Shown: positions 358-56,520, numbered from the stretch's first letter. The stretch is DNA of 64,000 nt from Deinococcota bacterium (GCA_041695225.1 JBGFRI010000003.1:86325-150324); one strand, 5' to 3'. The notes: generated by a model from the letters alone, not told the origin. A program made the numbers and translations.

Positions 358-463
358 GTGGAGCTACAGGGTGTCTGTCATGATGTCGGACTGGACCCAT
401 AACAGCTTCAGTCTAGGCAGTGGTCGTATTAGCGATATAATGCACTGTGATAGGAGGTAATAT

Positions 464-1696
464 ATGCTGGAAATCAGAAAAGGCATAATGTACTGGAAAG
501 AAGACTCGCTCGGTCCAATATGGGCTGAAAAACCGACCCAGGCAGTTCAGGCAACTGAAGAGGAGCTGGCCACCCTGGCCACAAGCCACGGTGAGGAAGG
601 CCCCATCCCCCGCCATCTCCTGCACCAGTGCTTCTTCTGGGTCAGGGGGGAGAGCGTGCCAGAGGACTATATCCCCTTCAGCAGCACCCTGGGGGTGGGA
701 GTCCCGGGCGTCTACTTCCTGGGCCGCAAGATACAGCCCAGGGATCTGGAAAGTGCTGATGTGCTGAGACTGGCTCAGTACAAGCTGCACCCCAATCAGC
801 ACCAGGGTCTAGCCGCCTGGCGGAGGTTTCCTTGGCTGGGACTACACGACAGAGTCGACTTTCGGGCGGTGGAGGGAGGCATCTATAAGTGCGATGGCCT
901 CCTGTTGGACTCGAGTGGCGATGTAATCTACCAGTCTGGTGTAGCCCAGCCTAGCGCAGCCTTGCTAGACTGGTTGGCCCAACAACCGCTATGGGCAGTT
1001 AAGGAGTTAAAGACCCGGGCAATCACTGGGTGGAAGATTCACCCGGAGGTACATCCAGGGTGGAAAGAACTTGCCACCTGGGAACGAAACCAGGGTAGAG
1101 AAGCCTGGGGCCTGTACCAGCATGAGTCCTCGCTTTACCTGGCAGGACCGGGAGTGCTGGTAGAACACAAAACCAGCAAGCGCAGCCTCCAGCGTATGCT
1201 GGAGGCTGGCTACCTGCGCCCTAACGATCCTACCCGCCTGCTCTGGTTGGAGGCCGTTACGGGTAAGCGGCTGGCAGACGCCCAGCACGGACACACGCAA
1301 CCAACGGAGGTTTTGTTGCTGGGGGAAAATCTCCTCCTGACGCATTACCATTTTTGGCGTGCGTGTCGTCCCAAGCAAAAACGCTGGGTCGTAAATTACT
1401 CCGGCAACGAGCAGCTGACCCCAGAAGAAATAGACCTGATTGGTCAGCATAATCTGGAGGCGCTTAAAGACTGGGCGGGGGGTTCCTACGCTTTCCAGGC
1501 CTACCTCGGTCTGGTGCGGGGCCAGCCACTGGCTATCTGGAAGCACCGGAACGGGGATCCAGGCTGCAGTACGGTACTGACAGCGCTCGACAAAAAGCCA
1601 GGCCATGGGCGAGTGTTGCTGCAAGGCTCGCTGAAGGAGGTTGTCGCAGCCGACCACGAAAGCCTCCTGGCCATGGAGATGCTGACCAGGATCTAG
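464..1696 (+). CDS. Unknown ~400-aa paralog family member 1
   Basis: Shares motifs LHQxFFW..G..P.DY.P....LG, WKIxP, L.PxDPT..W..A..G and a C-terminal GSL.E......LLA...L with five other ORFs. Preceded by TATAAT-N7-GATAGGAGG. Confidence 0.85.
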   Translation: MLEIRKGIMYWKEDSLGPIWAEKPTQAVQATEEELATLATSHGEEGPIPRHLLHQCFFWVRGESVPEDYIPFSSTLGVGVPGVYFLGRKIQPRDLESADVLRLAQYKLHPNQHQGLAAWRRFPWLGLHDRVDFRAVEGGIYKCDGLLLDSSGDVIYQSGVAQPSAALLDWLAQQPLWAVKELKTRAITGWKIHPEVHPGWKELATWERNQGREAWGLYQHESSLYLAGPGVLVEHKTSKRSLQRMLEAGYLRPNDPTRLLWLEAVTGKRLADAQHGHTQPTEVLLLGENLLLTHYHFWRACRPKQKRWVVNYSGNEQLTPEEIDLIGQHNLEALKDWAGGSYAFQAYLGLVRGQPLAIWKHRNGDPGCSTVLTALDKKPGHGRVLLQGSLKEVVAADHESLLAMEMLTRI

Positions 1697-1715
1697 GCAA
1701 GGCACAGGTAGAGCA

Positions 1716-1744
1716 CCCGGCTAAGGCTTGTCCCTAGCCGGGTT
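1716..1744. terminator. Hairpin between convergent genes
   Basis: ACCCGGCTA...TAGCCGGGT inverted repeat after the 464-1696 stop. Confidence 0.6.
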
Positions 1745-1868
1745 CTTGTCTAGTTTGCTCCCGCTCATCCCTGGAAATAAAGTTACCCCAATTCCTTCTT
1801 CTGTAGTATCGCCTTGTCCATCCACGCCGCCCCGGTCTGCAGCCGGCGCAGTTGCGCCACTAGCTGCT

Positions 1869-2786: not shown

Positions 2787-2787
2787 G

Positions 2788-4381: not shown

Positions 4382-4466
4382 CATGGACAAGCAACATTTC
4401 TTCGTAGAGCACGCAAAATAATCACTCGACTTTTGCAGAAAGGTGTGGTATGGTTCGACGAATATC

Positions 4467-6042: not shown

Positions 6043-6192
6043 AGATCCTGTAAGCGCCGGGCGTCCAGGCAGCACACCTGGTCTATCGCCGCGTAATCCT
6101 TTTTGTCGCAAAAACACTAACTGGATGCGGTTAGGAACAACCTCTCATAGAAGCTGACTATACCTAACACCGATAGGAGATAATAAGCAAAT

Positions 6193-11103: not shown

Positions 11104-12405
11104 CTACAGGTTGACTAGCTGGTGCGTAACAACCAGCTGGGTCAAACCTTCCCGGGCAACCCGCTGCTGCAGTTCTTCACGACTACCTCGGGCGATGATT
11201 TGTTTCCTCTCTGGCAGATCGGCTGATCCTATGGCCCATCGACCACCCGCAGCACCACCCAGCATGTAGTGCGCCCCATCCACACAACCCAGATACTCCA
11301 TAGGAGTATAAATCCGGTTGGGTGCTGGCAACGCCGCAAGGCTTAAGACCCCAGCCTCAATGACGGGCATGACCTCTCTGGGCAATGGCTGACGTACTTG
11401 CCAGTGCTTGTTTGCCCGATCATGGAAAAGCCAGGTAACCCCACCTTGCCGAGTCTTCAACAGGAGCCAGCACCCATGCTGATGGACCTGGGCCCATTTA
11501 GTGCGCAAGACCCCTTTGGGAAGTCTGGCTCCAGAAGTTGCCACAACCCAGAATGCACAGCTTGGGTCGTCGGGGCGCAAATGGCCTGCCTTGAGCAAAA
11601 CCCCCAGCCGCTTCTTGTGGAAAGGCCAGATCTTTTCGATCAGGCCTGGCCCGACAAGCCAGAGCGCCTTGTCCGGATCCTCCGTTATGGCCCAGGTCTG
11701 GTCCTCGCGCTGCCAGGTTCGTTCGATCCGGTGGTTGTCGGGCAGCTGCGGATAGGCGTACAGCAGCCGTAGCCGGTTGACATTGACGAAGCGCTCCAGA
11801 TCCTGGCAGAGTTCCTCCAGCGTTTCCGCTGCTTGCTGGTGGAGCCAGGCTCTAAACCCCTCCAGAAGTTGTAGCGACCGGTCTTCCCCACCGTATATGG
11901 AGATATTCAACAAACCCTTCCCCTGGCGATCATGCAGATGGCCATTAATCAGGAGGTAGTTTTTCCTTACGACCAGATTGCAGATACCCAGGTAGCTTTC
12001 CCCGGAGGTCTGAACCAGCAGTTCCAGGCCTGGCCGGTGGTTCGGCGACAGGGCCGGCTGGGGCCGGGCCAGCTCAGCTGCTACCTGGGTCGGAGTGGCC
12101 AGCCGGCCCAGATAATAGACCAGCCGGGAGTCCTCCAGCCCCAGCCGTGCGCTGATCGGGACGTACCGGTCTGGCAGCGCAACTCCCCTGGCCCGGAAGT
12201 AAAGCAGGTGGGCTGCCCGAAAAAGGGGACATTCCTCGGCATTAAGACCATAAGTGCCGGTCTTCGGCTCCAGCCAGGCGGCCAGCTCCTCCACTTCAGG
12301 GTTGCTTAGCAAGGGGTACTCCTCGGGTTCCAGCCAGAGAGAAAAAGATGGCAGGTCCTTGTAGGACATCTGCGGGCCGTTGTCGGTGTAACACACTTTT
12401 AGCAT
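11104..12405 (-). CDS. Unknown ~400-aa paralog family member 2
   Basis: YTDNGP N-terminus, HLLYFRARG..P..Y.P, WLVGPG, GHLRPDDP and the C-terminal family motif; GATAGGAGG module upstream. Confidence 0.85.
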   Translation of the reverse strand: MLKVCYTDNGPQMSYKDLPSFSLWLEPEEYPLLSNPEVEELAAWLEPKTGTYGLNAEECPLFRAAHLLYFRARGVALPDRYVPISARLGLEDSRLVYYLGRLATPTQVAAELARPQPALSPNHRPGLELLVQTSGESYLGICNLVVRKNYLLINGHLHDRQGKGLLNISIYGGEDRSLQLLEGFRAWLHQQAAETLEELCQDLERFVNVNRLRLLYAYPQLPDNHRIERTWQREDQTWAITEDPDKALWLVGPGLIEKIWPFHKKRLGVLLKAGHLRPDDPSCAFWVVATSGARLPKGVLRTKWAQVHQHGCWLLLKTRQGGVTWLFHDRANKHWQVRQPLPREVMPVIEAGVLSLAALPAPNRIYTPMEYLGCVDGAHYMLGGAAGGRWAIGSADLPERKQIIARGSREELQQRVAREGLTQLVVTHQLVNL

Positions 12406-12701
12406 GATTCTCCTCCTATCAAGACGTAATATATACTACTCAGAGCAACCTTGGAAAGCGCCACTCCTGTTACCAGCATTCTTACACCCAAACTTGCAAC
12501 AGCCACCACGCTACCCTGACCTCCTCCCTTCCTGGTCTGGTTGAATGTGCAGGCGCAAGCACAGGCGCTTGTGCTGAAGTGAGATTGTCATATAGGGGAT
12601 AGAGGAGAGAAAGTTCTCTCAATGTAAGGTAGGGAGTAAAATAAAGCGTAAAGAGTAAAAGATCACTATGGTGATATACTGGGTGGCGATAGGAGGCTAC
12701 C

Positions 12702-14238: not shown

Positions 14239-14313
14239 TAACATTATGAGCCTCCACAAAACGATTCTGGCTTCGTAGGTGGCTGGTATACTATTCCCCG
14301 ATAGGAGGACAAA

Positions 14314-15468
14314 ATGATCGAGATTCAATACACCGCCATCGGCCCCCGGATCTCCTTCCGGGGTCAGGATCTGGGCTACCTGTGGGATGAAAAGCCCGCA
14401 GTATGGCCTAAGCTCTCAAGGCAGGATCTGATTGACCTGGCCCAGGGCCAGGACTGGCTTCCAGCAAGGAAGCTCCACCAGGTGTTCTTCTGGGCCAACC
14501 AGAAGGAGATGCCAGAAGATTACCGGCCTTTAGGAGCAGTCCTGGGCTCACTAAGTAATCTTGAATCGGCCCAGCTCTGCTTCCTGGGCTATCCCACCAC
14601 CCCAGAGGAAATCAAGGCTAACTGGAAGGCGGCAAGCCGGGGAATGTTGCGAGGATTCTATCTGCGCCTCAAGGCATGGCTGGCAAATCCAGTCTCGGAC
14701 TTTGACATCCGGGGGGCCCTGGCGGAATCTGATCGACCCCATCCTCAAGTACGGGGCAAGGATCTGTCCCAGGGCCGGGCAGTATGGCTAGATCCTGGTT
14801 CCAGCGACCAGGACCAGGACTGGTTGACCGTTGAGCCTGCCTGGCTGCGAGGCGACAAGCTCTGGGGGTTTGCACATTCCCCCAGAACGCGGCGGATCTG
14901 GCTAGTAGGGCCGGAACTGGCCGCACTGGTCTCACCTGCTAATAAAGAGGTTCTTCAAGACCTTTTCCGGCAGGGGCATCTTCGCCTGGACGATCCCACG
15001 GTCTATCTCTGGCTCCAGGCCACCTCCGGCGAGGCAGTACCGGGGGTTGGGCCAACTCACTATGTTCGGGGGTGTCAGATTGGCAAGCGGTATGTCCTGA
15101 GAACCAGTTACGGGCACTGGGATGCTTGGCAGCCCGGTGGGGAGATCACCAAACTTTCCCAACTGGATGTTGAGGAGACCACCCGGCTCTTCGAGCAGGT
15201 GGGACCGCAGGCGGTGGCTCAACTGGTGTTTGAGCTAACTCGCAATAGCCACTCTGAGACTAGTTCTGCTTACTTCCTGGGCCTGGGCCGGCATAAAAAG
15301 CAGGCCTGGTTTGCCGGAAATCTCGCTGGGATTGGGTGGAGGTTGACCAGCCCTCAGCTGGGTGGGCAGACCGTCCTGGAGACCTGCTCGCTGGAAGAGC
15401 TACTCAGGGAGGTAGAACGGGTCGGGCTAGACGGGCTGCTGGCCATACACCGGCTGGCCAGGCTCTAG
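14314..15468 (+). CDS. Unknown ~400-aa paralog family member 3
   Basis: Family motifs; 14298-14513 is identical to 19922-20137. Confidence 0.85.
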   Translation: MIEIQYTAIGPRISFRGQDLGYLWDEKPAVWPKLSRQDLIDLAQGQDWLPARKLHQVFFWANQKEMPEDYRPLGAVLGSLSNLESAQLCFLGYPTTPEEIKANWKAASRGMLRGFYLRLKAWLANPVSDFDIRGALAESDRPHPQVRGKDLSQGRAVWLDPGSSDQDQDWLTVEPAWLRGDKLWGFAHSPRTRRIWLVGPELAALVSPANKEVLQDLFRQGHLRLDDPTVYLWLQATSGEAVPGVGPTHYVRGCQIGKRYVLRTSYGHWDAWQPGGEITKLSQLDVEETTRLFEQVGPQAVAQLVFELTRNSHSETSSAYFLGLGRHKKQAWFAGNLAGIGWRLTSPQLGGQTVLETCSLEELLREVERVGLDGLLAIHRLARL

Positions 15469-18412: not shown

Positions 18413-18540
18413 TCTGTGACTCCTTCCAGGATAATCTCCTGTCAGGTTCTAATATAGCAATACATTACCTGGAACGCAACTAAAGACACAGTAGAAGAAG
18501 GCCGCACTTCACAAGTGCGGCCCGTCCATTGTTCCTGTTC

Positions 18541-19776
18541 CTAGAAGTGAACCAGCAGATGCTGTGCCGTCAGCACAGCCAGACCATTCCGCTCCAGTTG
18601 GCCAAGTACCTCCTCAAGAGATCCGCTGGTACAAACCCGCCGATCCTTTGGCAGATTGGGAGCGCTGATTCTGTAGCACACTCGATCTGCACGGGAGAAG
18701 TCTGCTTCCAGGAACCAGAACCGACCTGCCACTACTCCCAGATACTTGGAGGAGACCTGGGCGCTACGGGAGTTACTGGTTGGAGCCAGACCCTCTTCCA
18801 GCAGCACTCGAACATCGGGGTGTTTGAGCACATCCAGGCCGACGGTTGTCCAGTTGCCTCCGGCGCGGGCATAGAGGTCGATGATCCGGTAGTTCTCCTG
18901 GTAGCAGGCCAGAAGGTTCCCCTCGAGCCGGGCCCGTGCATACACCCCTCGGTATGTGTGGCGCAGCCTGGTTCCGATGGTGGCCTCCACCCAGTGGACG
19001 CAGGTGGGATCATCCGGTGACAGGTAGCCAGCTTCCAGATGCTGCTTCAGGGCCCTGCGACTCATTGGAAGTCGCTGTTTGATCCCAGGTCCCAGCAACC
19101 AGGTGTTCTTGGAGTCCTTGAAGTACCCCCAGAACTGACCGGTACGCTCCCACAACGAGACCACCTTGCTCATAGCAGGGGCCTCTGGGTTTATTTTCCA
19201 GCCAATCATGGCTGGACACGTGCTCTGGCGAATGTCGGCCATAGAGACCGAGGGTAGCCAGTCCCTCAGAGCCCACCGGGGCGCACTATCGCCCTTCTGG
19301 TACAGGAGCGTCCCATTGCTCGCCCAGGCAGTGTCTCCCAGCTCTTCCCACCAAGCAGTGTTTGCCTGCTCCTGCCAGCGGTGGGGTCTCTGGGATCGGA
19401 CTGGCTCGTGTCTGGCTCGCCACTTCTCGACAAAGTGATTGCCGAACTCGTCCAGGCCCACACAGGCCAGCTCCCAAGAGAGCTGTTCCGGCACGATTAC
19501 TGGCCTCCCCAGATAGTAGAGAACATCTCCCACCTTCCCGAGTGCAAGCCCAAGCCACTCGTAAATGGCTGGTGCGACCTTACCGTCCGCCCAGAAATAA
19601 AACCGGTGCAGGGTGGGCCAGTGGCTGGGCTGTAGCCTAAAGTCTGCGGCAATCCCAGCCAGCTGGCTGGGATCAAGCCGTGGCCAGACCCTGGGCTCGG
19701 AAGCCAAGGTGCTGCCGATGGTCTGGCCGTTGAGAACCCAGTTGGGCCCTTGGTCTGTGTACTCTATGATCAACAT
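18541..19776 (-). CDS. Unknown ~400-aa paralog family member 4
   Basis: YTDQGP, LHRFYFWADG, GWKINP, WLLGPG, GYLSPDDPT and GSLEEVL; GATAGGAGG module upstream. Confidence 0.85.
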   Translation of the reverse strand: MLIIEYTDQGPNWVLNGQTIGSTLASEPRVWPRLDPSQLAGIAADFRLQPSHWPTLHRFYFWADGKVAPAIYEWLGLALGKVGDVLYYLGRPVIVPEQLSWELACVGLDEFGNHFVEKWRARHEPVRSQRPHRWQEQANTAWWEELGDTAWASNGTLLYQKGDSAPRWALRDWLPSVSMADIRQSTCPAMIGWKINPEAPAMSKVVSLWERTGQFWGYFKDSKNTWLLGPGIKQRLPMSRRALKQHLEAGYLSPDDPTCVHWVEATIGTRLRHTYRGVYARARLEGNLLACYQENYRIIDLYARAGGNWTTVGLDVLKHPDVRVLLEEGLAPTSNSRSAQVSSKYLGVVAGRFWFLEADFSRADRVCYRISAPNLPKDRRVCTSGSLEEVLGQLERNGLAVLTAQHLLVHF

Positions 19777-19937
19777 ATGTCCTCCTATCAATATCTAGTA
19801 TATAGCACTTGTTTGCTTGCACCTGGGCAAAAAGTTCTAGTTGAGATTAGCTAGCTACCTTAAAGCGCATATTCCGGTTGAGGTGCTATAAAAAGAAAGA
19901 AGAAATCTGCTATATTGTTTTCCGATAGGAGGACAAA

Positions 19938-21119
19938 ATGATCGAGATTCAATACACCGCCATCGGCCCCCGGATCTCCTTCCGGGGTCAGGATCTGGGC
20001 TACCTGTGGGATGAAAAGCCCGCAGTATGGCCTAAGCTCTCAAGGCAGGATCTGATTGACCTGGCCCAGGGCCAGGACTGGCTTCCAGCAAGGAAGCTCC
20101 ACCAGGTGTTCTTCTGGGCCAACCAGAAGGAGATGCCTAAAAATTACGACCTTCTGGGAACAGCCCTGGGAGCAGTGGGTAGGAAACCTTATCTACTTGG
20201 CCGTCCCACCAGCCCAGAAGAGGTCAAGGCCAACTGGGATCTGGCCACGGATAAGGTAGACCTGGGGCGCCGCTGGGGCTTGGAGGTGTGGAACATCTGT
20301 CCTGAGCCAGGACTGAGATGGCTGGAAAGTCCTCTATTCCGGCCTTACCGTCATATACACGGTCTGGTGATTGATGCTGCTGGCAAGATTCTCTACGCCC
20401 CTGGCGACAGTAGCCCCCGTGACCCAGACTGGCTGGCGGCCACTCCTTATCAGGATCTGGAGGCTCTGAAAGCGGACGCCCTCCTAGCCTGGAAGATTAA
20501 TCCTGCGGCCCCAACTGGCAAAGTAAAAAGGAGCTGGTTGCGCGGAAAAGAGCGGTGGGGATTTGTCCAGTCAGACAAAAAGACCTGGCTGGTAGGACCT
20601 GACCTGGTAGAACAGGTCAACCCAGCCCGAGAAACCGTTCTCAGGAGGCTTCTCCAAAAGGAAATTCTCCGCCTGGAGGATCCTACTGCCTACCTCTGGT
20701 TTCAGGCTATGACCGGGAGCAAGATTCACAAAGCTTCTGTCTGGGACTATGGCCGTGGTTACCAGGTAGGAGAAATCACTGTGCTGGGAAAACCCTTCTG
20801 GCACAACTGGGGGTGTTTTAGCTCCTGTGGGAGATCTGCTGAGGTAGAAAAGCTTCACCCTGAGCAGATCAAGGCCCTGTTCGAGCAAGTCGGACCAGAG
20901 AGCATTAATCGCAGGAACATCTCTACTGGCTACTTCCTGAGCTCGGAAGCAGGGGTATCCTGGTTTGTCCGCCGGGACTCGCCCCATGGCTGGCAGCTAA
21001 ACACGCCCACAGCCACAACGCCCGTCCTGAAAGGCGACACCCTGGAAGACCTCCTGGCCCTGGTGGAGCGTCATGGACTAAGCCAGTTGCTAGCCATGTA
21101 CCAGCTGACCAGAGTCTAG
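19938..21119 (+). CDS. Unknown ~400-aa paralog family member 5
   Basis: Family motifs; 5' block identical to member 3; terminator at ~21134-21162. Confidence 0.85.
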   Translation: MIEIQYTAIGPRISFRGQDLGYLWDEKPAVWPKLSRQDLIDLAQGQDWLPARKLHQVFFWANQKEMPKNYDLLGTALGAVGRKPYLLGRPTSPEEVKANWDLATDKVDLGRRWGLEVWNICPEPGLRWLESPLFRPYRHIHGLVIDAAGKILYAPGDSSPRDPDWLAATPYQDLEALKADALLAWKINPAAPTGKVKRSWLRGKERWGFVQSDKKTWLVGPDLVEQVNPARETVLRRLLQKEILRLEDPTAYLWFQAMTGSKIHKASVWDYGRGYQVGEITVLGKPFWHNWGCFSSCGRSAEVEKLHPEQIKALFEQVGPESINRRNISTGYFLSSEAGVSWFVRRDSPHGWQLNTPTATTPVLKGDTLEDLLALVERHGLSQLLAMYQLTRV

Positions 21120-21383
21120 GCACAGTTTTTACTAACCCCCATTGCTGTTAGCAATGGGGGTTATCTTTTTTCCGTTTTCCAAGAACCACCTGGTGCCCCT
21201 GTGGTCCGAGACGAGGCTGCTACCGTAACCCGGCTGCACATGCTGTAGACGAACAATAAAAGGGCCAGCCGCTTAGCGGCTCGCAGGCACAGTAAGCGGC
21301 AGGGATTTCTCCCTGCCGCACCTTGTTTAATATGCACTAGTAATACCGGACTATATGCCATAAGGTGTAATATAGTATTATCT

Positions 21384-23432: not shown

Positions 23433-23671
23433 ATATTCTCCTCCTATCACTATTCAGCATACAATACCGTCCGTGCAGGAAAACAAAAATAATGCGAATC
23501 CATCGTCACTGCGTCACCAGACCACTTGTTTCCGCTTTGGAGCGCTACTTATCAATGTGACGCATGGTGACGCAACGCATGGACTGCCGGACTTTCACAG
23601 CGCACTCACCCAGGCTAAGCAAGAAAAGTGAGGTAGGATAGCCTATCTGTGAAATATGACCTTTCACAGAT

Positions 23672-25110: not shown

Positions 25111-25163
25111 GACACATCTCATCGGCCGGTACTCTGATATACTCTACTCCGATAGGAGGAGAT

Positions 25164-26420: not shown

Positions 26421-26551
26421 CCACAAGCCACAGGCGATATACAGGGGAGGCCATCTCCCCTGTGTTTTTCTTGTGCTTTTCCTACAAAAAACAGATCCTT
26501 GCTAGCCTGCTGCTCGCGCATCATATATAATCAATCGTGATAGGAGGAGTT

Positions 26552-28354: not shown

Positions 28355-28585
28355 ATCTTACCTGTGCTTTTTGCCGTGCTTCTTGCGTCCCAGGTACCGG
28401 GCCGTCTGGCCTTCCTCTACCAGCAGCTCCTGAATCAAGTAATGCCCTTTGGTACCGATCGGAATACGCCGGGTTAACTGCATCCACTGACCCTTTTTCC
28501 CTGCACACTGCCAGCTCATAGCTAACTGTATTATATATCAGACAGTGATAGGAGTACAGAGGCAAGCATAACTCCATGCTCAACT

Positions 28586-31500: not shown

Positions 31501-33394
31501 TGCCTTTGAACTGCGGGTCATTCTCAATATAGTCGTTATAGTTCGTGACCTTTTCTGACGGGATACATACCGGTAGCACGATATACCCGTACTGCTTCCC
31601 AGGTGCCATACGCATTACACGCCCCACCGACTGAACAATGTCAACAATGGAGTCGCGGGTATCGAAAAACACCACCGCATCAAGCGCGGGAACATCAATG
31701 CCCTCAGAAAGGCAGCGGGCATTGGAAAGAATCCGGCACTCTCCATCCTCCGGTCCCCCTTTGAGCCAGCCGAGCGCTTCCTGGCGCTGGAGGGCATTCA
31801 TGGTTCCGTCAACGTGCTGTAGACGCACACTGACCATATCCGATTGATCTGCACTGTCCAGATGTCCTTCCTGGTAGCGTTCCACCAGGCTGGTGAAGAT
31901 CTCTGTAACCAGCTGAGAATCCTTGATGGAGCGTGAGAATGCTATCGCACGGCGCATGGGCTGGAGGTCGTCTTTCGCCTCCTCCTCCCCATCCTCACCA
32001 ATCAGCACCAGGCCACGTTTGGAGAGTCCTTTCCAACTACCGATGATTTTGGTGGCGAACGCAACATTAATTGCCTTCTTGTTGTTTACTTTGAATGCCT
32101 TGTTGAAATTATTTGCCAGGGCCGCCATCTCTGCCTCTCGCACTGCGACGATGAGTACCTTGTACTCAGCAAGAAGACCGAGCGATGCGGCCTTGTCAAA
32201 ACCAAGCCGGTAGAATTCGCTGCCGTAAGTCTCCTCATCGTCCATTGAGTACAGCACTGCTTCGTGGCGGCTGGCCTTGGTCTTGGAGGCTTCCCCGAAG
32301 ATCCGGGGGGTGGCAGTCATATAAACTCGTTTTCTGCCCCGCACAATGATGTTATCGTGTACCTTAACGAATTCCGAGGGATCCTCTCCAGGTAGGGTAA
32401 GTCCAGTAGTGCGGTGTCCTTCGTCGCAGATGATGAGATCAAACTCTGGTAGACCCATGTTCTGGGCATCGGCTATGACTTGAATGGACTGATAGGTGGA
32501 AAACACCACCGTGCGGCGGTCTGGGGATACCATCGCCATGTGGCTAGCAAGTCTGTCTGGATCAGTCGTTGCCGGGTAAGCAAGGTCTCGAGTACTGATG
32601 TCTTCCTCATCGCGCCCAACTTTGCTATCCGAACAGACGGCAAAAGCATGAACCGGCTCTTCGGCTTCACCAGTCCACTCCCGTAAGGTTTGCGCTACCA
32701 GGGAGATCGAGGGAGCGAGGAAGAGAATCCGTCCACCCTGGGGAACTATACGCTCGGCAAGACGCAAAGAGGTAAGCGTTTTGCCGGTTCCACAGGCCAT
32801 GATAAGCTTTCCGCGCTCCGCGTTGCCAAGTCCAGTGAGAACTGCTTTAACCGCTTCTTCCTGGTGGGGGCGTAAAACTTTCCTTTTCCTCAGTTGGAGG
32901 GTCTCGAGGTTTTCGAGACTGAACACACCCCAGTCAATTGGGCTCTCGGCAAGATCCTTAACCCAAAGCCGCATAACTGGAATCGTCTGGTCTACAAGTG
33001 CTTCCTCTGCGTGCTTACTCCACCTATCGGTCGTGGAGACGATAAGGCGATAACTGAACCCGCGCTCGCCTTCCTCGGTTTGGAAGTGTTTGCCCGATGT
33101 AGTAAAAAACGAGTCAATATCTGCCTTTTGAACGGTATGGGTAGAGTCGAAAAACTTGCACTGTACTGCCCAGTAATCGCCGGTAGCACGTTCGCGGGCA
33201 ATAAGGTCAATACCTGTATCGTGTGGCGTCCAGCGCCCCGGCCACTCGGGCCACAGCCAAACGTTCGAGAGACGAGTAGCGTACTGGGGATCTGTGAGTA
33301 GAAACTTCTGGATCAATCGCTCAAAGAGCGTACCCTTGTCGCGGTTAGTACGAGCGTAGGAGGAGAACTGAGTCAGGAGATCTTCAAAAGTCAC
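28586..33394 (-). CDS. Type ISP restriction-modification enzyme (Mrr-like nuclease, SF2 helicase, N6-adenine MTase, TRD)
   Basis: GIDL...AVQCK nuclease; MACGTGKT, DEGH, TAT and QSVGRVMR helicase motifs; LDPFAGTG and GNPPY MTase motifs; LlaBIII/LlaGI-like C-terminus. Confidence 0.93.
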   Translation of the reverse strand: MTFEDLLTQFSSYARTNRDKGTLFERLIQKFLLTDPQYATRLSNVWLWPEWPGRWTPHDTGIDLIARERATGDYWAVQCKFFDSTHTVQKADIDSFFTTSGKHFQTEEGERGFSYRLIVSTTDRWSKHAEEALVDQTIPVMRLWVKDLAESPIDWGVFSLENLETLQLRKRKVLRPHQEEAVKAVLTGLGNAERGKLIMACGTGKTLTSLRLAERIVPQGGRILFLAPSISLVAQTLREWTGEAEEPVHAFAVCSDSKVGRDEEDISTRDLAYPATTDPDRLASHMAMVSPDRRTVVFSTYQSIQVIADAQNMGLPEFDLIICDEGHRTTGLTLPGEDPSEFVKVHDNIIVRGRKRVYMTATPRIFGEASKTKASRHEAVLYSMDDEETYGSEFYRLGFDKAASLGLLAEYKVLIVAVREAEMAALANNFNKAFKVNNKKAINVAFATKIIGSWKGLSKRGLVLIGEDGEEEAKDDLQPMRRAIAFSRSIKDSQLVTEIFTSLVERYQEGHLDSADQSDMVSVRLQHVDGTMNALQRQEALGWLKGGPEDGECRILSNARCLSEGIDVPALDAVVFFDTRDSIVDIVQSVGRVMRMAPGKQYGYIVLPVCIPSEKVTNYNDYIENDPQFKGIWQVIKALRAHDERLVDEAEFRRRITVISDPGRKKEGWETSEQGELPLEIPFLPIEAINEAVYAAIPKKLGDREYWADWAKDIARVANTLTARITTLIQASPVVAEELARFLKGLQETLNPAVTREEAIEMLVQHILTLPVFQALFAETNFPENNAVGKALQRMVEKLDAAAVASETEGLEKFYQNVRERISLARSDKSKQEIIRNLYDTFFNTAFPKMSERLGIVYTPIEVVDYILKSADAALRKHFGESLGSPGVQILDPFAGTGTFFVRLLQLGLIPRDKLPEKYLTEIHANEIVLLAYYIATVNIETAYHGATGEYLPFEGMVLTDTFQMTEKGDLIDRIILPENNARVERQLAQPIRVIVGNPPYSAQQESQNDNNRNLSYPELDTRIRETYAAQSNAKLLKNLYDSYIRAIRWASDRIGERGVVAFVTNGSFLDARNMDGLRKCLVEEHSQLYVFNLRGNQRTSGEESKREGSKIFGSGSRTPVVITIMVKDPRHQGPGELYYHDIGDYLTQEEKLTLIGRFASIDAIPWQRLQPNAEADWINQRDPEFETFIPLGNKEDEEAKTIFGVYSLGVSTGRDAWAYNMGRQALEANMRRMIGVYNEEQERYARACESKPREQWPSVEEVIDSDPKRISWTVNLKEDLKRSKKYKFEETSIVTGMYRPFVKQWLYFNRSFIERILKQPKLFPTPRHHNIVISVTGVGAARPFSALVSDCVPNLHLHDTGQCFPLYWYDKIDNTSSPQQEILADSAPPDTNGYIRREAITDWALEEFRKHYADGTITKEDIFWYVYGILHSPDYRSRFAANLKKMLPRVPFATDFWAFSRAGKDLGHLHLNYETVEPYPLTEEARILELEPWQFYRVRKIAFGKGADGKVDKTVIVYNQNLTLRDIPLAAYQYVVNGKSAIEWAMERYSISEDKDSGIVSDPNEWCREAGNPRYIVDLIRRLVTVSLRTEAIVKGLPPLS

Positions 33395-48523: not shown

Positions 48524-48895
48524 TTACTGCCGGGGTCTGGTACAAAAAATAGTATTACCTTCTACACGCGGTCCAGTTCCAGGGTTAGCCGCGGTATTCA
48601 GCGTCAGCCCGGTAAAAACCTGCTGAATGGAGCCAAAGTTAAATAGCAGGATGGCCCCGATACCGGCAGCAACGGCCAGGCCCTTAGCAGCGCGTGAATC
48701 GATAGCAAAATACATCACTACCGCGACTGCCAGCAACGCGATGATGATCAGACGCCCAACCGTCCCGGTCAGGATATTGACAAACGGGCAGAGTATATCC
48801 CCCACCCGGTTGGCAGCATCCTGCTCTATCGTCTGCCCGAAGGCCACGCCCAGCAACATCAAGCCGATGAAAAACAGCGGTTTGTACAAGTTCAT
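48524..48895 (-). CDS. VirB2/TrbC-like pilin
   Basis: Signal peptide plus two hydrophobic helices (LTGTVGRLIIIALLAV); first gene of the operon; GAGGAGAG RBS. Confidence 0.75.
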   Translation of the reverse strand: MNLYKPLFFIGLMLLGVAFGQTIEQDAANRVGDILCPFVNILTGTVGRLIIIALLAVAVVMYFAIDSRAAKGLAVAAGIGAILLFNFGSIQQVFTGLTLNTAANPGTGPRVEGNTIFCTRPRQ

Positions 48896-48997
48896 AAGCT
48901 TCTCCTCTCCTCTTTAGGTATATCATTGCTCCGTGTCACTTGCAGGGGTTCTCACCCGCTACACTAACCACCGGTGTTCCCCTGCTAAGATAATAAC

Positions 48998-51383: not shown

Positions 51384-51463
51384 CCAGTTTTGGAGGAATA
51401 TCGTGAATGATACCTGCCGCACGGGTCTGGTGTAGCTGGCCCGGTGTATCTCCTATCGGGTTT

Positions 51464-51496
51464 TATTATAGTAATAACTAAGATATGGGTGTAAGA
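51464..51496. promoter_or_regulatory. Imperfect copy of the 12-9-12 palindrome overlapping two divergent -10 boxes
   Basis: Right arm ATGGGTGTAAGA is perfect (51485-51496); left arm TATTATAGTAAT matches 7/12. Confidence 0.55.
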
Positions 51497-51521
51497 TTTG
51501 GGCTGATAGGAGGTTACACTC

Positions 51522-51848
51522 ATGACCACCCCTCATCAGCTCGCCTACCATGAAAACGAGCTAAAGCGCCTGCAAGCCGCTCTGGCTAGTCTGATCCCAC
51601 TGGGAATTAAATGGCGGCAGATCAAATGCGGGAAAAAGTGTCGTTGCCAGCAGGGGCTGCTTCACGGCCCCTACCCCTACCTGCGCATAAAGCGGGATGG
51701 GAAGTGGGTACACCATTACCTGGGCAGGGACTGGGAGCCCCCGGCAGGGATATGCAAGCCCAGCCAGTACCGTCGGCTGATGCGCCAGTACCGGGAGCGC
51801 CTGAAGGAGGTTGAACGGCTACGCGACCAGCTAGCCCGGGCCAGCTAA
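51522..51848 (+). CDS. DUF6788-like small basic protein
   Basis: KCGKKCRC....HGPYPYL...RDGK....YLG. Confidence 0.7.
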   Translation: MTTPHQLAYHENELKRLQAALASLIPLGIKWRQIKCGKKCRCQQGLLHGPYPYLRIKRDGKWVHHYLGRDWEPPAGICKPSQYRRLMRQYRERLKEVERLRDQLARAS

Positions 51849-51998
51849 AGCCTCACCAGGCTCCGGTAAGGGTAGTCGCTCCGGCGCTAATGATATATAA
51901 TCCCTCAATAGGAGGGCCTGCGTTTGTCAGGCTCTCCGGGGAGCTTGACAGTTAGACACAGGACCTCCTGCCCCCCCAAGGGGAAAGGAGGTGGATAT

Positions 51999-52130: not shown

Positions 52131-52173
52131 AGCTCCCACCCCCCTGAGATTCCGGGTCTCAGGGGGGACTCTT

Positions 52174-52923: not shown

Positions 52924-53009
52924 AAACTGATTGTAGCTGCTGGAACAACCGGATAGCAGGACAAATGAGAAGAGCCACTCCTATTTAGTTTGCATATATA
53001 ATACTCCTG

Positions 53010-54593: not shown

Positions 54594-54611
54594 AAACTCC
54601 ACAACCGGGCT

Positions 54612-55307
54612 TTAGTCGCGCCACTCCCCTGGCTCAGGACGGCTCCCCAGGGCTTCCAGCAGACTCCACTCCACTACACTGTAGTTCAGAATAGCCTGTG
54701 CAGGATGCAGATAGCCTTCAAAGCACAGCCCGGCAATACTACCATCCAGCATCACTCCCAGCGGGGCGGTACTGCTGCTGCCCAGAGCCTGTAACAGTGC
54801 CCGGAAAGCCCCTTTGATCAGCAAACGCTCCTCATCTATGTTCCAGTGCAACACCGGGCCCAGCTCGTAGACCGGGAAGCCCGGCCCTAAAGCCGGGTGG
54901 GACAGCTGCAAAACCGGCCGCACGGGGGTAAATTGCACCGGGGTCATACGATGGTGGACAGAAAGCAGGTAGATCCCCAGCAGCTCATTCTCCTGCTTGA
55001 GTTTCAAAGCCTGTTGTACAAAGATACCGGGGTTAAAGATCAGGTGGCTGGGAGCAACCTGGCTTCCCTGCCCCAGCAGCAGCCAGTCCACTGAGGTGGT
55101 ATGAGTACGGGCAAACTGGTACAGCCGGTGGTTGTTCAGATGCTCTAGCACCCGATCCGGATGCACCAGATCGGCCAGATTGTTGACCGGCCAGCCATAG
55201 TGATGCAGTACAGCGGGGGCCTGCAGGTAGCTGATGCCATGCCAGGCCAGCGCCATCAGCATCCGGCCGGGGATGGATCGAATCTGTTCAAGAGGATCGT
55301 TGATCAT
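54612..55307 (-). CDS. Hypothetical protein (possible HTH in the N-half)
   Basis: ORF with TSVDWLLLG, a motif typical of the end of Cro/CI HTH domains. Confidence 0.6.
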   Translation of the reverse strand: MINDPLEQIRSIPGRMLMALAWHGISYLQAPAVLHHYGWPVNNLADLVHPDRVLEHLNNHRLYQFARTHTTSVDWLLLGQGSQVAPSHLIFNPGIFVQQALKLKQENELLGIYLLSVHHRMTPVQFTPVRPVLQLSHPALGPGFPVYELGPVLHWNIDEERLLIKGAFRALLQALGSSSTAPLGVMLDGSIAGLCFEGYLHPAQAILNYSVVEWSLLEALGSRPEPGEWRD

Positions 55308-55360
55308 ATCTACTCTAAGCTGGTGTGCTGGGGGAGATTCCCCCAGCACTATTCCTCTGA

Positions 55361-56440
55361 CTAAATCCTCAGCGGCACCACCACCGCCAAATAGCCGGAG
55401 CCATCGGTTGGTACGACCATGGCTGGGGTCGTGGTACCACTCAAACGGAGCCGTACCTCCTCGGCTTTTGGCGGTAGAGCCTCAAGCAGATACCGGGCGT
55501 TGAAGACAACTTCCGGAATGAAGTCATCTTTCACTTCCATCCGAGCAGGAATCGTCTCCTTGGCGGCGCCGTAGTCCCCTTCGGTCCGCAGATGGAGCTG
55601 GTCTTTCTCGAAGAGCAGATCCACCCGCCGATTGTGCTGTTCTGCAACCAGCTGCAACCGGCGGAGGGCAGCTTCCAGTTGCGCCGAGTTAAGAGTCGTC
55701 TCACAGAGAAAGTTCTGCGGGATGACCTTCCAGTAGTCGGGGAACTCCCCGGCCATGGGCGCAAAGGCCAGGCAGGCCTCCGGGCTCAGAAGCGCGACCC
55801 GGCCCTGCTCGTAGGCCAGCTGGAGATCTGCTCCAGTCTCCTCAAACAGAGAGAGAATATCGGCGACAGCAGCCAGGGGCAGCACCACCTTGAAGGCCTG
55901 GCCTCCTGTTTCCAGGGAAGCCGTATAGGTAGCCAGACGATAGCCATCGCTGGCTACCGCCTTGAGATCGGGGCCGACCTCGAGCTGAATCCCCTCAAAG
56001 ATGCCCCGGTATACCTGGCGGCTGACCGCATACCGGACTGCCTTCAGTGCAGTACATAGCCTCTCAGCCGGTACTGTAACGGTTCCCGGGGTAAAGCTTG
56101 GCCTGGTCAGACCATCTGCCTGGACCAGGGTAAGCCGGGCCGAGAACGACCCTGCCTGTACCTGAAGAGCAGAACCCTCCAGAGCCAGGGTCAGCTCTCC
56201 CTGTGGCAGCCGACCCACCAGCTCGGCCAGCTTGGGACCATTAAGAGCTGCCGTCCAGGGCAGTCCCTCACTCTCCACCAGGGGCAGGACCATCTCCAGA
56301 TCCCGCTCATGGGAGACCGAGAGGCGCAAAGTCCCATTGGCCTCGATCTGAAGCGGGTGGTGGGAACCCTGCTTGGAAATACCCCGGCTCAGCACACTCA
56401 GAGCATGGGCAAACTTCTTGTTATCGACGATTGCTTTCAT
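55361..56440 (-). CDS. dnaN: DNA polymerase III beta sliding clamp
   Basis: VASDGYRLA, GEFPDYWKVIP, FNARYLLEAL and C-terminal VVVPLRI. Confidence 0.93.
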   Translation of the reverse strand: MKAIVDNKKFAHALSVLSRGISKQGSHHPLQIEANGTLRLSVSHERDLEMVLPLVESEGLPWTAALNGPKLAELVGRLPQGELTLALEGSALQVQAGSFSARLTLVQADGLTRPSFTPGTVTVPAERLCTALKAVRYAVSRQVYRGIFEGIQLEVGPDLKAVASDGYRLATYTASLETGGQAFKVVLPLAAVADILSLFEETGADLQLAYEQGRVALLSPEACLAFAPMAGEFPDYWKVIPQNFLCETTLNSAQLEAALRRLQLVAEQHNRRVDLLFEKDQLHLRTEGDYGAAKETIPARMEVKDDFIPEVVFNARYLLEALPPKAEEVRLRLSGTTTPAMVVPTDGSGYLAVVVPLRI

Positions 56441-56520
56441 CTTCTCCTCCTATCAGACTCTATTATACACTAAGGCTTAGAATATCTTTGGTATATAGTG
56501 GTTCATGATAGGAGGATAAT

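What the first reader, a model, noticed from the sequence alone, without database searches (positions are those of the whole stretch)
436..56515. Fifteen copies of a rigid -10 box-N7-GATAGGAG expression module
Seen: a TANNNT-like hexamer followed exactly 7 nt later by GATAGGAG. The first G is at 449, 6172, 12688, 14300, 19924, 25151, 26539, 28547, 51505 and 56507 (+), and at 12420, 19789, 23448, 51457 and 56454 (-). The 7-nt spacer varies in sequence but never in length, and a consensus -35 is mostly absent. The module heads all six unknown paralogs, the Csx16-like gene, the RuvC-like gene, dnaN, the S-layer gene and the DUF6788-like gene, but no T4SS, rep or par gene. Inference: transcripts start at GAUAGGAG, fusing the TSS and Shine-Dalgarno. 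This would define an early or establishment regulon comparable to plasmid leading regions and phage host-takeover clusters, possibly with a plasmid-encoded regulator.
Basis: partly seen in the sequence, partly recalled or inferred. Interest (0 to 1): 0.8.

Follow-up and report, generated by a model that had tools for sequence, protein, structure and literature searches.

The report
Plasmid-private fused promoter and ribosome site
A family of large conjugative plasmids of hot-spring Thermaceae bacteria starts dozens of its genes with one rigid 25-base cassette, a -10 promoter box followed exactly seven bases later by GATAGGAGG, whose core is the same eight bases as the still unexplained "start-associated sequence" of Cluster K mycobacteriophages.

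Summary
All 15 listed sites exist. Strict TANNNT-N7-GATAGGAG occurs 13 times in the window, against 0.02 expected.

The contig is a circular 150-kb plasmid. It holds 32 strict copies; the other 2.68 Mb of the genome hold none.

The same cassette marks homologous plasmids in three Thermaceae genera and is confined to them: 12 of 12, 15 of 15 and 13 of 13 matches. In those three and the window's own genome it occurs 11-28 times each. The other 360 of 364 genomes of the phylum have 0-1.

Across orthologous promoters only the -10 box and GATAGGAGG are conserved.

The promoter half is the host's ordinary -35-less type, as at its leaderless genes. No sigma factor or polymerase was found on the plasmid.

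Most likely the host polymerase starts at or next to the G, so the mRNA begins with a Shine-Dalgarno that matches 8 of 9 bases of the 16S tail.

What selects GATA and the exact spacing is unresolved. It could be the ribosome, 5'-end stability, or a plasmid repressor. No RNA data exist.

The closest known element is the Cluster K phage SAS, GGGATAGGAGCCC.

The scan had not noted this motif before.

The parts
436..457 (+). Module TATAAT-N7-GATAGGAGG. ATG at 464. Heads a 410-aa paralog of unknown function.
6159..6180 (+). Module with TATACC in place of TANNNT, then GATAGGAGA. ATG 21 nt after the G. Heads the 674-aa SLH-domain protein. The ortholog on G210:C3 has the same layout.
12412..12433 (-). 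Module. ATG at 12405. Heads a 433-aa paralog. Divergent with the 12688+ module.
12675..12696 (+). Module. ATG at 12702. Heads a 462-aa protein with no family hit.
14287..14308 (+). Module. ATG at 14314. Heads a 384-aa paralog.
18435..18456 (-). Degenerate module (TATATT-N7-GACAGGAGA). The predicted 5' hairpin runs from +3 and a second SD follows. Heads a 90-aa protein conserved in all four elements; it is a weak helix-turn-helix candidate.
19781..19802 (-). Module. Start at 19776. Heads a 411-aa paralog. Divergent with the 19924+ module.
19911..19932 (+). Module. ATG at 19938. Heads a 393-aa paralog. A terminator-like hairpin follows at 21133-21163.
23440..23461 (-). Module (TATGCT). ATG at 23432. 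Heads the Csx16-like protein (Cas_VVA1548, E = 3e-14).
25138..25159 (+). Module. ATG at 25164. Heads a 418-aa paralog. A terminator-like hairpin follows at 26439-26465.
26526..26547 (+). Module. ATG at 26552. Heads a 174-aa unknown protein. Orthologs in G210 and G031 also have a module.
28534..28555 (+). Orphan module (TATATC-N7-GATAGGAGT) with no ORF. A transcript from it would run antisense into the 3' end of the Type ISP restriction gene (28586-33394, minus strand).
48901..48922 (-). Degenerate module (TATACC-N7-GAGAGGAGA, 14.7 bits). ATG at 48895. Heads the first gene of the operon that contains the VirB4-like gene. The G035 counterpart has GAAAGGAGA.
51449..51470 (-). Module (TATAAT-N7-GATAGGAGA) with no convincing ORF. 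Back to back with the 51505+ module, 47 nt between the two 8-mers.
51492..51513 (+). Module (TAAGAT). ATG at 51522. Heads the DUF6788 protein, 108 aa.
51894..51915 (+). Degenerate module (AATAGGAGG, 19.6 bits). Heads a 68-aa ORF.
56446..56467 (-). Module. ATG at 56440. Heads the DnaN-like sliding clamp, 359 aa. Back to back with the 56507+ module, 52 nt between the two 8-mers.
56494..56515 (+). Module (TATAGT). GTG at 56521. Heads a 73-aa unknown protein. The ortholog on G210:C3 also has a module.

Best explanation
The module is a self-contained expression cassette that belongs to one lineage of 125-156-kb conjugative plasmids of Thermaceae.

Its upstream half is an ordinary -35-independent promoter of the host's main sigma factor: a -10 box, often with the extended-10 TG.

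Transcription starts at the G of GATAGGAGG, or one base before it. The mRNA therefore has no leader other than the ribosome-binding site itself. [quoted passage not shown] The start codon follows 4-8 nt later.

Such 'Shine-Dalgarno-first' mRNAs need only host polymerase and ribosomes. They drive single-gene units for DNA metabolism, anti-restriction and unknown cargo.

Shown: the motif, its rigidity, its restriction to the plasmid lineage, and its conservation. Not explained: why GATA rather than the fully complementary GAAA is invariant, and why the spacing is exactly 7.
For: Element-specific.
- Strict TANNNT-N7-GATAGGAG: 32 on C8, 0 on the other 49 contigs.
- A weight matrix at 19 bits or more: 39 against 0.
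- In the three related genomes, all 12, 15 and 13 matches lie on the homologous replicons. In those three and the window's own genome it occurs 11-28 times each (G000 28, G035 14, G031 13, G210 11). Eight of the 364 genomes of the phylum have 1 match and 352 have none.

Conserved under divergence.
- Plasmid GC content runs from 59.6 to about 70%.
- In 13 ortholog groups (29 pairs), identity is 0.26 upstream, 0.82 in the -10 box, 0.29 in the spacer, 0.96 in GATAGGAGG and 0.36 after it.

Host-type promoter.
- The chromosome has TANNNT 6 nt before 222 of 4102 candidate starts, against a background of about 38. It has 118 at 7 nt. The box consensus is TAnaCT and there is no -35 information.
- The relatives' sites carry T at -16 in 32 of 48 and G at -15 in 38 of 48.
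- The genome has one sigma-70 region-2 match and it is not on C8. There is no T7-type polymerase.
- PMC12340547 (passages read) reports that a TANNNT box alone works as a promoter in Deinococcus-Thermus.

Start at or near the G.
- A pyrimidine stands at -1 in 34 of 35 sites, and in 47 of 48 in the relatives, with G at +1.
- Where the ORF has its own later SD, predicted hairpins begin exactly at the G. Examples are C8 65904- and 47781-, with GAUAGG...CCUAUC.

Tied to the 5' end.
- Among 89 GGAGG-led ORFs on C8, GATA occurs with the -10 box in 26 and without it in 0.

16S tail.
- The 16S gene ends ...CACCTCCTTTCT.

Independent gene calls.
- RefSeq starts on pMESIL02 fall 14 nt after the G at six modules.
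Against: - No transcript data exist for any of these plasmids, so the start site and activity are inferred.
- If only host machinery reads the module, its absence from the chromosome is not explained: 2 of 784 GGAGG-led chromosomal genes have GATA. The invariance of the non-pairing T is not explained either.
- The spacing is far more rigid than the host's own tolerance. Module spacings of 7, 6 and 8 nt number 72, 3 and 1. Leaderless genes at 6, 7, 8 and 9 nt number 222, 118, 80 and 81. This hints at joint reading of both halves by one protein complex.
- By the host's modal distance, the start would be the pyrimidine before the G.
- GATAGG is kept where it cannot be the gene's SD, and at orphan sites. 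It therefore has a role beyond ribosome binding for the downstream ORF.
- Many plasmid proteins have no family hit, so a new kind of factor is not excluded.
- The weight matrix was trained on C8, and the ortholog sets were picked with it. Both inflate the conservation figures. The exact-pattern counts carry no such bias.
Confidence: 0.5

Rival explanations
1. The module defines a global plasmid regulon. A plasmid-encoded DNA-binding protein, probably a repressor that binds an asymmetric site as a monomer, recognises YGATAGG at +1 in fixed register with the -10 box. All module genes would then be held down in established cells and would burst on entry into a new host. The GGAGG part doubles as the SD.
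For: - The motif is confined to one plasmid lineage and is absent from host chromosomes. It is also absent from a second replicon of the same host that carries a 56%-identical copy of a module gene.
- The spacing is rigid: 72 sites at 7 nt, against 3 at 6 nt and 1 at 8 nt.
- GATAGG is retained at orphan sites and at genes that use a later SD.
- The T4SS operon has the same layout but a different base at +3 in two elements.
- There is a precedent. In plasmid R388 the repressor ArdK controls PardC, Pssb and three more promoters, and they overshoot after transfer (PMC3937220, passages read). Here ssb and an ArdC-like gene carry the module.
- A 90-aa protein conserved in all four elements is a weak helix-turn-helix candidate (Pfam HTH_32, E = 0.032). 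Its own promoter carries a variant module in three of the four.
Against: - No regulator is identified.
- The 90-aa model has low confidence (pLDDT 63.7), and its fold matches have E above 0.4.
- Nothing outside the -10 box and the 9-mer is conserved.
- The same 8-mer recurs in unrelated mycobacteriophages. This is easier to explain by a shared host machine such as the ribosome than by a shared plasmid protein.
Confidence: 0.25
2. GAUAGGAG is an RNA-level signal, a 'start-associated sequence' in the sense used for Cluster K phages. It would be read by the ribosome in a special way, or by an RNA-binding or 5'-end-sensing factor. Examples are protection of the 5' end from RNase J by a bound 30S subunit, or a preferred loading site for 70S ribosomes in leaderless-rich hosts. 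The fixed spacing would exist only to place the motif at the very 5' end.
For: - The core is identical to the Cluster K SAS, GGGATAGGAGCCC. That sequence occurs 11-19 times per phage genome, 3-7 bp before starts, and is absent from the host. Its authors judged it more than a good RBS (PMC3203893, passages read). I confirmed 15 copies in phage Anaya.
- The non-pairing T sits at the same position in both systems.
- The host encodes RNase J (541 bits, cut-off 400).
- On C8, GATA before GGAGG is never found away from a transcript start.
Against: - In the phages the SAS also sits inside operons and is not tied to a -10 box at 7 nt, so the two systems differ in the very feature in question.
- Given a shared AGGAG and extended pairing, the match amounts to little more than the one T. 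That is about a 1-in-3 coincidence.
- In at least four modules the motif is predicted to be sequestered in a hairpin.
- SAS function is itself unknown (PMC11373665 and PMC12699233, passages read).
Confidence: 0.17
3. The plasmid brings its own transcription machinery, either a single-subunit polymerase or a private sigma factor, and the module is that machinery's promoter. The resemblance to the T7-type TATA-GGGAGA start suggested this.
For: - The motif is plasmid-private and rigid.
- There is a superficial likeness of ATAGGAG to the start region of T7-type promoters. That likeness is recalled from memory, not taken from a call.
- Many plasmid ORFs have no family hit.
Against: - No Pfam RNA_pol (PF00940) match exists anywhere in the genome. 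The control genomes also gave none, so this search is weak.
- No sigma-70 region-2 match lies on C8.
- The largest unknown ORF, 1626 aa, has a prepilin-type N-terminus and no match by sequence search (phmmer) to any solved PDB chain.
- The 7-nt stretch that would hold a T7-type specificity region is not conserved.
- The -10 box matches the host's own consensus.
Confidence: 0.03

Closest known systems
Start-associated sequences (SAS, with their extended form ESAS) of Cluster K mycobacteriophages (Pope et al. 2011, PMC3203893)
   Same: - The core 8-mer GATAGGAG is identical; the SAS is GGGATAGGAGCCC.
- Both are asymmetric and sit at the ribosome-binding position, 3-7 bp before the start there and 4-8 nt here.
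- Both occur in about a dozen or more copies per element and are absent from the host genome.
- Both are associated with non-structural, DNA-metabolism and unknown genes.
- Both are conserved across sub-lineages at genes of different families.
- Both carry a non-pairing T at the same place relative to the 16S tail.
- A subset of SAS (the ESAS) is preceded by a conserved putative SigA promoter (PMC11373665).
- I confirmed 15 copies in phage Anaya.
   Different: - The host phylum differs (Actinomycetota against Deinococcota), and so does the element type (temperate siphovirus against conjugative plasmid).
- The flanks differ: GG...CCC there, Y...G here.
- In the phage there is no -10 box 7 nt upstream, and many SAS lie inside operons. 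On the plasmid the motif is found only fused to a -10 box.
- The ESAS carries a -35 and a 17-bp inverted repeat; the module has neither.
- SAS function is unknown, so the comparison names a parallel and not a mechanism.
-10-only (leaderless-type) promoters of Deinococcus-Thermus (de Groot et al. 2014, PMC4007540, listing and abstract only; PMC12340547, passages read)
   Same: - A TANNNT box suffices and no -35 is needed.
- The same box consensus (TAnaCT, TATACT) and the same short distance to the start are seen on this host's chromosome.
- C8 itself also has 17 leaderless-type starts.
   Different: - There the transcript begins with the start codon; here it begins with a Shine-Dalgarno.
- Spacing there is flexible (6-9 nt); here it is fixed at 7.
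- The module is not used by the chromosome.
Global repressor regulons of conjugative plasmids (R388 ArdK, StbA and KorA, PMC3937220; RK2 KorA and KorB, recalled from memory)
   Same: - Many plasmid promoters share one short sequence in fixed register with the promoter.
- Targets include ssb and ardC-type genes.
- Such a regulon would give a burst of expression after transfer.
   Different: - Those operators are repeats bound by known repressors. Here the site is a single asymmetric 8-9-mer that is also the SD.
- No regulator is known here, and no expression data exist.
STAB-SD 5' mRNA stabiliser of Bacillus thuringiensis cry3A (Agaisse and Lereclus 1996, as described in review PMC4113751)
   Same: [quoted passage not shown] The host here has RNase J.
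   Different: [quoted passage not shown] Here the same sequence is normally the working SD.
- No stability data exist for the module.
Symmetric bidirectional promoters of bacteria (PMC10268837 and PMC12825309, listing and abstracts only)
   Same: Several modules are back to back. C8 50612-/50635+ and G035 95916-/95939+ share one palindromic TATA core, with 22 nt between the two 8-mers.
   Different: This is a side feature of 7 pairs on C8. It does not explain the motif.

Membership tests
Cluster K phage start-associated sequence (SAS) | A match to GGGATAGGAGCCC with at most 2 mismatches, the criterion of Pope 2011 that was reused in 2025 | tested here: not met
   The core GATAGGAG is identical, but the flanks are variable or different. 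The base before the G is C or T, not G, in 34 of 35 sites. After GGAG comes G in 28 of 35 and then mostly A or T, not CCC. Most sites would therefore have 4-5 mismatches to the 13-mer.
Cluster K phage start-associated sequence (SAS) | An asymmetric repeat a few bases upstream of start codons, present in many copies per element and absent from the host genome | tested here: met
   The start lies 13-17 nt after the G at most sites. There are 35 copies on C8 and 0 elsewhere in the genome.
Cluster K phage start-associated sequence (SAS) | Also found at operon-internal gene starts, independent of a promoter | tested here: not met
   On C8, GATA before GGAGG never occurs without the -10 box at 7 nt: 26 with, 0 without. 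In phage Anaya no such box is present.
Sigma-A extended -10 / -10-only promoter of Deinococcus-Thermus | A TANNNT hexamer like the host's own, with no -35 requirement and an optional TG one base upstream | tested here: met
   The hexamer is TATAnT and -35 matches are at the random level. TG is present in 38 of 48 sites in the relatives (G at -15) and in 14 of 35 on C8.
Sigma-A extended -10 / -10-only promoter of Deinococcus-Thermus | Transcription starts 6-9 nt downstream of the hexamer | not testable with these tools
   No RNA run holds this DNA. Only indirect signs exist: the pyrimidine-purine step and the 5' hairpins.
Plasmid global-repressor regulon (ArdK or KorA type) | A plasmid-encoded DNA-binding protein binds the shared site | not testable with these tools
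   There are only weak candidates: the 90-aa protein (HTH_32, E = 0.032; low-confidence model) and a 212-aa protein with an HTH_36 hit (E = 3e-4).
Plasmid global-repressor regulon (ArdK or KorA type) | The operator is a direct or inverted repeat | tested here: not met
   Outside the -10 box, only one asymmetric 9-mer is conserved.
T7-type single-subunit RNA polymerase promoter | A cognate polymerase gene on the element and a conserved specificity region between -12 and -5 | tested here: not met
   There is no PF00940 match, though this is a weak test because the controls gave none either. The 7-nt spacer is not conserved: identity is 0.29.
STAB-SD type 5' stabiliser | An SD-like sequence at or near the 5' end that raises mRNA half-life through 30S binding | not testable with these tools
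   Only the prerequisites were checked: 8 of 9 bases are complementary to the 16S tail, and the host has RNase J.

The most novel reading that the evidence does not exclude
GAUAGGAG is a signal private to mobile elements that has arisen or been kept in two phyla whose 16S rRNA ends in ...CCUCCUUUCU. The 16S end is shown for this host; for mycobacteria it is recalled from memory.

The signal would be read by the host ribosome or by its 5'-end surveillance in a way that an ordinary Shine-Dalgarno is not.

Thermaceae plasmids have fused it to a -10 box to make a third class of bacterial mRNA, 'Shine-Dalgarno-first'. This class lies between leaderless and leadered mRNAs.

Such a design would give a plasmid or phage its own expression channel without any protein of its own. 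It would also explain the 15-year-old puzzle of the phage SAS.
Probability: 0.2. Interest if true: 0.85.

Novelty: new variant of a known kind. Interest (0 to 1): 0.62.

Why it matters
- It shows that a whole plasmid lineage can carry a private, rigid promoter-plus-RBS cassette that its hosts' chromosomes do not use.
- It links that cassette by an identical 8-base core to the unexplained start-associated sequences of Cluster K mycobacteriophages. A parallel in a second phylum, on a different kind of mobile element, favours explanations based on shared host machinery. It also gives a second system in which to test them.
- Three carriers appear to be cultured type strains: Allomeiothermus silvanus DSM 9946 with pMESIL02, Calidithermus chliarophilus DSM 9957 and C. 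roseus NBRC 110900. Start-site mapping, reporter assays and plasmid-free comparisons are therefore ordinary experiments.
- The 25-35-bp cassette is a ready-made compact expression part for Thermaceae.
- The rigid 7-nt spacing, set against the host's flexible 6-9 nt, is a clean handle on how start sites are chosen by a polymerase that does not need a -35.

Tried and rejected
- RNA evidence: the look-up of sequencing runs listed 24 DNA runs and no RNA holder.
- PLSDB megablast of window 1-25000 found no match.
- A full-text search for GATAGGAGG found 265 papers. The 20 listed were primer or unrelated uses.
Every stretch it listed held a single match. This is chance-like and uninformative.
- Rfam at gathering thresholds found no match in the window.
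- The paralog family has no hit in Pfam, PHROGs or NCBIfam. The ESM Atlas gave only leads below 0.9, and a PDB profile search gave E = 0.12 at best.
- The search for related loci with the paralog alignment was rejected because the alignment has no conserved stretch. The 90-aa family was used instead.
- The 90-aa protein gave a low-confidence three-helix model and fold matches with E above 0.4, mostly to helix-turn-helix domains. A PDB profile search found nothing below E = 0.046.

Ideas considered and dropped:
- A repeat or MITE origin. There is no similarity outside the 25 bp.
- A general host promoter-to-SD spacing rule. The chromosome shows no peak.
- An RNA hairpin between the spacer and GGAG. 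Only some positions fit, and it would need a start inside the spacer.
- A sigma-dependent pause site. GATAGG lacks the key last T of a -10 box. This is reasoning, not a call.
- A plasmid-borne ribosomal protein. No ribosomal-protein family appears among the Pfam hits.

Full report
**1. The observation**

GATAGGAG occurs 17 times in the window, against 2.09 expected.

Thirteen have a strict TANNNT hexamer exactly 7 nt upstream; 0.02 are expected. Two have TATACC or TATATC in the same register. The two remaining 8-mers, 30343+ and 38014+, lack the box and look like chance copies.

The window is G000:C8:86325-150324. Over the whole contig, 35 of 39 GATAGGAG copies have TA at -13/-12. The logo from these 35 sites is t-K-R-TATAnT-N6-Y-GATAGGAGG, with no information further upstream.

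A -35 is absent, not merely rare. The best TTGACA match at 16-19 bp averages 2.57 of 6, against 2.51 at random positions. A canonical promoter scan is at chance.

**2. What the DNA is**

C8 has a 121-bp exact terminal overlap, so it is a circular replicon of about 150.2 kb.

It carries the following:
- Rep3 and ParAB;
- VirB4- and VirD4-type transfer genes;
- a type IV pilus set with a 1626-aa prepilin-like protein;
- a Type ISP restriction enzyme;
- IS200/IS605 elements and Cascade-like genes;
- a two-OB-fold SSB and a DdrB-like protein. These two fit a Deinococcus-Thermus host; that association is my own knowledge, not a tool result.

I did not test the genus.

**3. Specific to the element**

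Strict TANNNT-N7-GATAGGAG occurs 32 times on C8 and 0 times on the other 49 contigs, which total 2.68 Mb. A weight matrix built from the C8 sites gives 39 hits at 19 bits or more on C8 and none elsewhere.

The chromosome's 784 GGAGG-led ORFs show no peak of TANNNT at the module distance: 1.7%, against 30% on C8. Only 2 of them have GATA before GGAGG, against 26 of 89 on C8.

Because G000 is a binned assembly, I repeated the test in three other genomes:
- G210, 3 contigs: 12 of 12 matches lie on C3.
- G035: 15 of 15 lie on C8 and C1.
- G031: 13 of 13 lie on five small contigs homologous to those.

G210:C3 is 100% identical over the 5 kb I tested to NC_014214.1, plasmid pMESIL02 of Allomeiothermus silvanus DSM 9946.

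The record titles give a Calidithermus chliarophilus DSM 9957 contig of 155,960 bp and a C. roseus NBRC 110900 contig of 24,060 bp. These lengths and the positions of the matches equal those of G035:C8 and G031:C140.

A second replicon of G210 (C2) carries a 56%-identical copy of one module gene. It has no module-like site in the 100 kb I read.

**4. Distribution**

I searched 364 genomes of the phylum. Four have 11-28 matches: G000, G210, G035 and G031, from three genera of one family. Eight have one match and 352 have none; reversed-pattern controls give 0-1.

tblastn shows that the four elements are homologous plasmids. Backbone genes share 40-86% amino-acid identity. Their GC content runs from 59.6% to about 70%.

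**5. Conservation**

Modules head the same gene families in different elements:
- UvrD-type helicase;
- MoxR-type ATPase;
- VWA-like DUF2201 protein;
- SSB;
- DnaN;
- a Gp3-like protein;
- the SLH protein;
- several small unknown proteins.

I anchored the alignments on the G for 13 ortholog groups, giving 29 cross-genome pairs. Identity by region:

| Region | Identity |
|---|---|
| -50 to -17 | 0.26 |
| -10 box | 0.82 |
| spacer | 0.29 |
| GATAGGAGG | 0.96 |
| next four bases | 0.36 |

These sites were picked with the C8 matrix, which inflates the two high values.

An unbiased check takes every exact GATAGGAG on the four elements. TANNNT lies 7 nt upstream in 72 of 99 sites, at 6 nt in 3 and at 8 nt in 1.

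RefSeq gene starts on pMESIL02 fall 14 nt after the G at six modules. At a seventh, an IS982 has inserted between the module and ssb.

**6. Who reads it**

The host chromosome has the leaderless signature of its phylum. TANNNT lies 6 nt before 222 of 4102 candidate starts, against a background of about 38, with 118, 80 and 81 at 7, 8 and 9 nt. The box consensus is TAnaCT, G is frequent two bases upstream, and there is no -35 information.

This agrees with PMC12340547 (passages read). That paper reports TANNNT 6-7 bp before about a third of D. radiodurans ORFs. It also reports that the box alone works as a promoter in Deinococcus and Thermus.

The module's box is the same kind. In the relatives it carries the extended-10 TG: T at -16 in 32 of 48 sites and G at -15 in 38 of 48.

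The genome has a single sigma-70 region-2 match and it is not on C8. No T7-type polymerase was found, but that search also found nothing in the controls.

I conclude, by inference, that the host's main holoenzyme reads the promoter half.

**7. Where the RNA starts**

No RNA run holds this DNA. The indirect signs are these:
- A pyrimidine at -1 and G at +1 in 34 of 35 sites on C8 and in 46 of 48 sites in the relatives (pyrimidine at -1 in 47 of 48, G at +1 in 46 of 48).
- The G is the eighth base after the box, which is within the host's own range.
- Five modules have their start codon 19 nt or more away or have no ORF. In four of them the predicted fold is a hairpin that begins exactly at the G; in the fifth it begins at +3. 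Two of the four, C8 65904- and 47781-, have GAUAGG...CCUAUC followed by a separate GGAGGUGA.

The host's modal distance would put the start one base earlier, at the pyrimidine. I cannot decide between the two positions.

**8. What the downstream half is**

The 16S gene ends ...GGATCACCTCCTTTCT. GAUAGGAGG therefore pairs at 8 of 9 positions with the 16S tail, reaching its second-last base. The perfect complement would be GAAAGGAGG. Start codons lie 13-17 nt after the G at most sites. The sequence is thus a working Shine-Dalgarno.

It is more than that, for five reasons:
- The non-pairing T is invariant.
- GATA before GGAGG is never found on C8 without the box at 7 nt: 26 with and 0 without, while 62 other GGAGG-led ORFs have neither.
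- GATAGG is kept at sites where it cannot serve the ORF.
- The spacing is much more rigid than the host tolerates at its own leaderless genes.
- The T4SS operon has the same layout, but with G or A at +3, in two elements.

**9. Closest known**

The start-associated sequence of Cluster K mycobacteriophages is GGGATAGGAGCCC, which contains the same 8-mer. Pope et al. (PMC3203893, passages read) describe 11-19 copies per genome, 3-7 bp before starts, in the non-structural arm. They found no copy in M. smegmatis and argued that it is more than a good RBS.

Its function was still called unknown in 2024 and 2025 (PMC11373665 and PMC12699233, passages read). The 2024 paper reads the extended form (ESAS) as a conserved putative SigA promoter with an inverted repeat just upstream of the SAS.

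I confirmed 15 plus-strand copies before starts in phage Anaya. None has a box 7 nt upstream.

The module does not meet the 13-mer definition, and it differs in being tied to the transcript start. I therefore do not file it as an SAS. It is a parallel.

Beyond the shared AGGAG and two pairing bases, the coincidence rests mainly on the one T, so a common mechanism is suggested and not shown.

**10. Mechanism and odds**

- Best reading, 0.5: host holoenzyme plus host ribosome. The cassette is a minimal 'Shine-Dalgarno-first' unit that lets plasmid genes be expressed with no plasmid protein.
- Rival, 0.25: a plasmid repressor binds YGATAGG in register with the box and makes a regulon. R388 ArdK, which controls ardC and ssb, is the precedent (PMC3937220). 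The candidates are weak: a 90-aa protein conserved in all four elements, with a low-confidence model.
- Rival, 0.17: an RNA-level signal, for example protection of the 5' end from RNase J by a bound 30S subunit as with STAB-SD, or a special mode of ribosome loading.
- Rival, 0.03: a private polymerase.

**11. The genes served**

In the window the modules head:
- six of eight plasmid paralogs of about 400 aa, with 26-37% identity to the first and no family or structure match;
- a 462-aa unknown protein;
- a Csx16-like protein;
- a 174-aa unknown protein;
- the SLH protein;
- DUF6788;
- DnaN;
- a 73-aa ORF.

Elsewhere on C8 they head a DnaQ-like exonuclease, a MoxR ATPase, UvrD, a dNMP phosphatase, DUF2201, SSB, an ArdC-like protein, a helicase and a methyltransferase.

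Several units end in terminator-like hairpins, so they look like single-gene cassettes.

This content fits an 'establishment and DNA-metabolism' set. However, the sites are spread over about 110 kb on both strands, and nothing shows timing.

**12. Verdict**

This is a real, strongly non-random motif that is private to one plasmid lineage and conserved across genera. Its promoter half is explained. Its invariant GATA and its fixed spacing are not. I rate it a new variant of known kinds, with moderate to high interest.

Noticed in passing
window 464-1696, 11104-12405(-), 14314-15468, 18541-19776(-), 19938-21119, 25164-26420; also C8 64141-65364 and 72716-73480(-): There are eight paralogs of an approximately 400-aa protein family, 26-37% identical to the first. 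Invariant residues include H54, Y69, W170 and W206. The family has no Pfam, PHROG, NCBIfam, PDB or Atlas match. Each copy has its own module and several have their own terminator. One copy each is found in G035 and G031.
   Followed up: partly
C8 50605-50642 (outside the window); L018 15909-15947 (G035): These are fully symmetric bidirectional promoters. Two modules face away from each other and share one palindromic TATA core, with 22 nt between the 8-mers. The same design occurs in two elements.
   Followed up: partly
window 28534-28555 (+) and 51449-51470 (-): Two modules have no ORF behind them. The first would send a transcript antisense into the 3' end of the Type ISP restriction-modification gene. 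Either could make a small RNA. Rfam finds nothing there.
   Followed up: partly
C8 34175-34209 (-), outside the window: A module is followed by a second TATAAT box inside its own leader, 6 nt before the ATG of the DnaQ-like exonuclease gene. This looks like a tandem leadered plus leaderless promoter pair.
   Followed up: no
G000 contigs C14, C15, C17, C25, C26, C28, C30, C44: A chromosomal repeat family is built of ACCTTAG-like heptamer runs that end mostly in TGCGAC-GATAGGAG-CAC. About a dozen copies account for roughly a quarter of the chromosome's GATAGGAG copies. None has the -10 box.
   Followed up: no
L200 (NC_014214.1) 18534-19355: On pMESIL02 an IS982 transposase gene sits between a module (G at 19402, minus strand) and the ssb gene that the module heads in the other elements.
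   Followed up: partly
C8 1-31000 (L001, L002): The plasmid carries a type IV pilus or T2SS-like gene set (secretin, two T2SSE ATPases, T2SSF, PilO) with a 1626-aa protein that has a prepilin-type N-terminus. The set is conserved on G210:C3 and G035:C8. No module lies in this 31-kb block except a weak one at 12313.
   Followed up: partly
C8 60244-63666 and 1989-2729 (L004, L001): The plasmid has Cse1-, Cas7- (CT1975), Cas5- and Cse2-like genes, and no Cas3 was seen in my Pfam tables. I did not look for a CRISPR array.
   Followed up: no
NC_014214.1: PLSDB types pMESIL02 as non-mobilizable although it records an MPF_T mating-pair system. The relaxase of this plasmid family may be of an unrecognised kind.
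   Followed up: no
window 21384, 53010, 48998, 17473(-): The same plasmid also uses the host's leaderless design, a -10 box 6-7 nt before the start codon. It does so at the XRE regulator, a helicase, a 623-aa protein and a 198-aa protein. There are 17 such starts on C8.
   Followed up: partly
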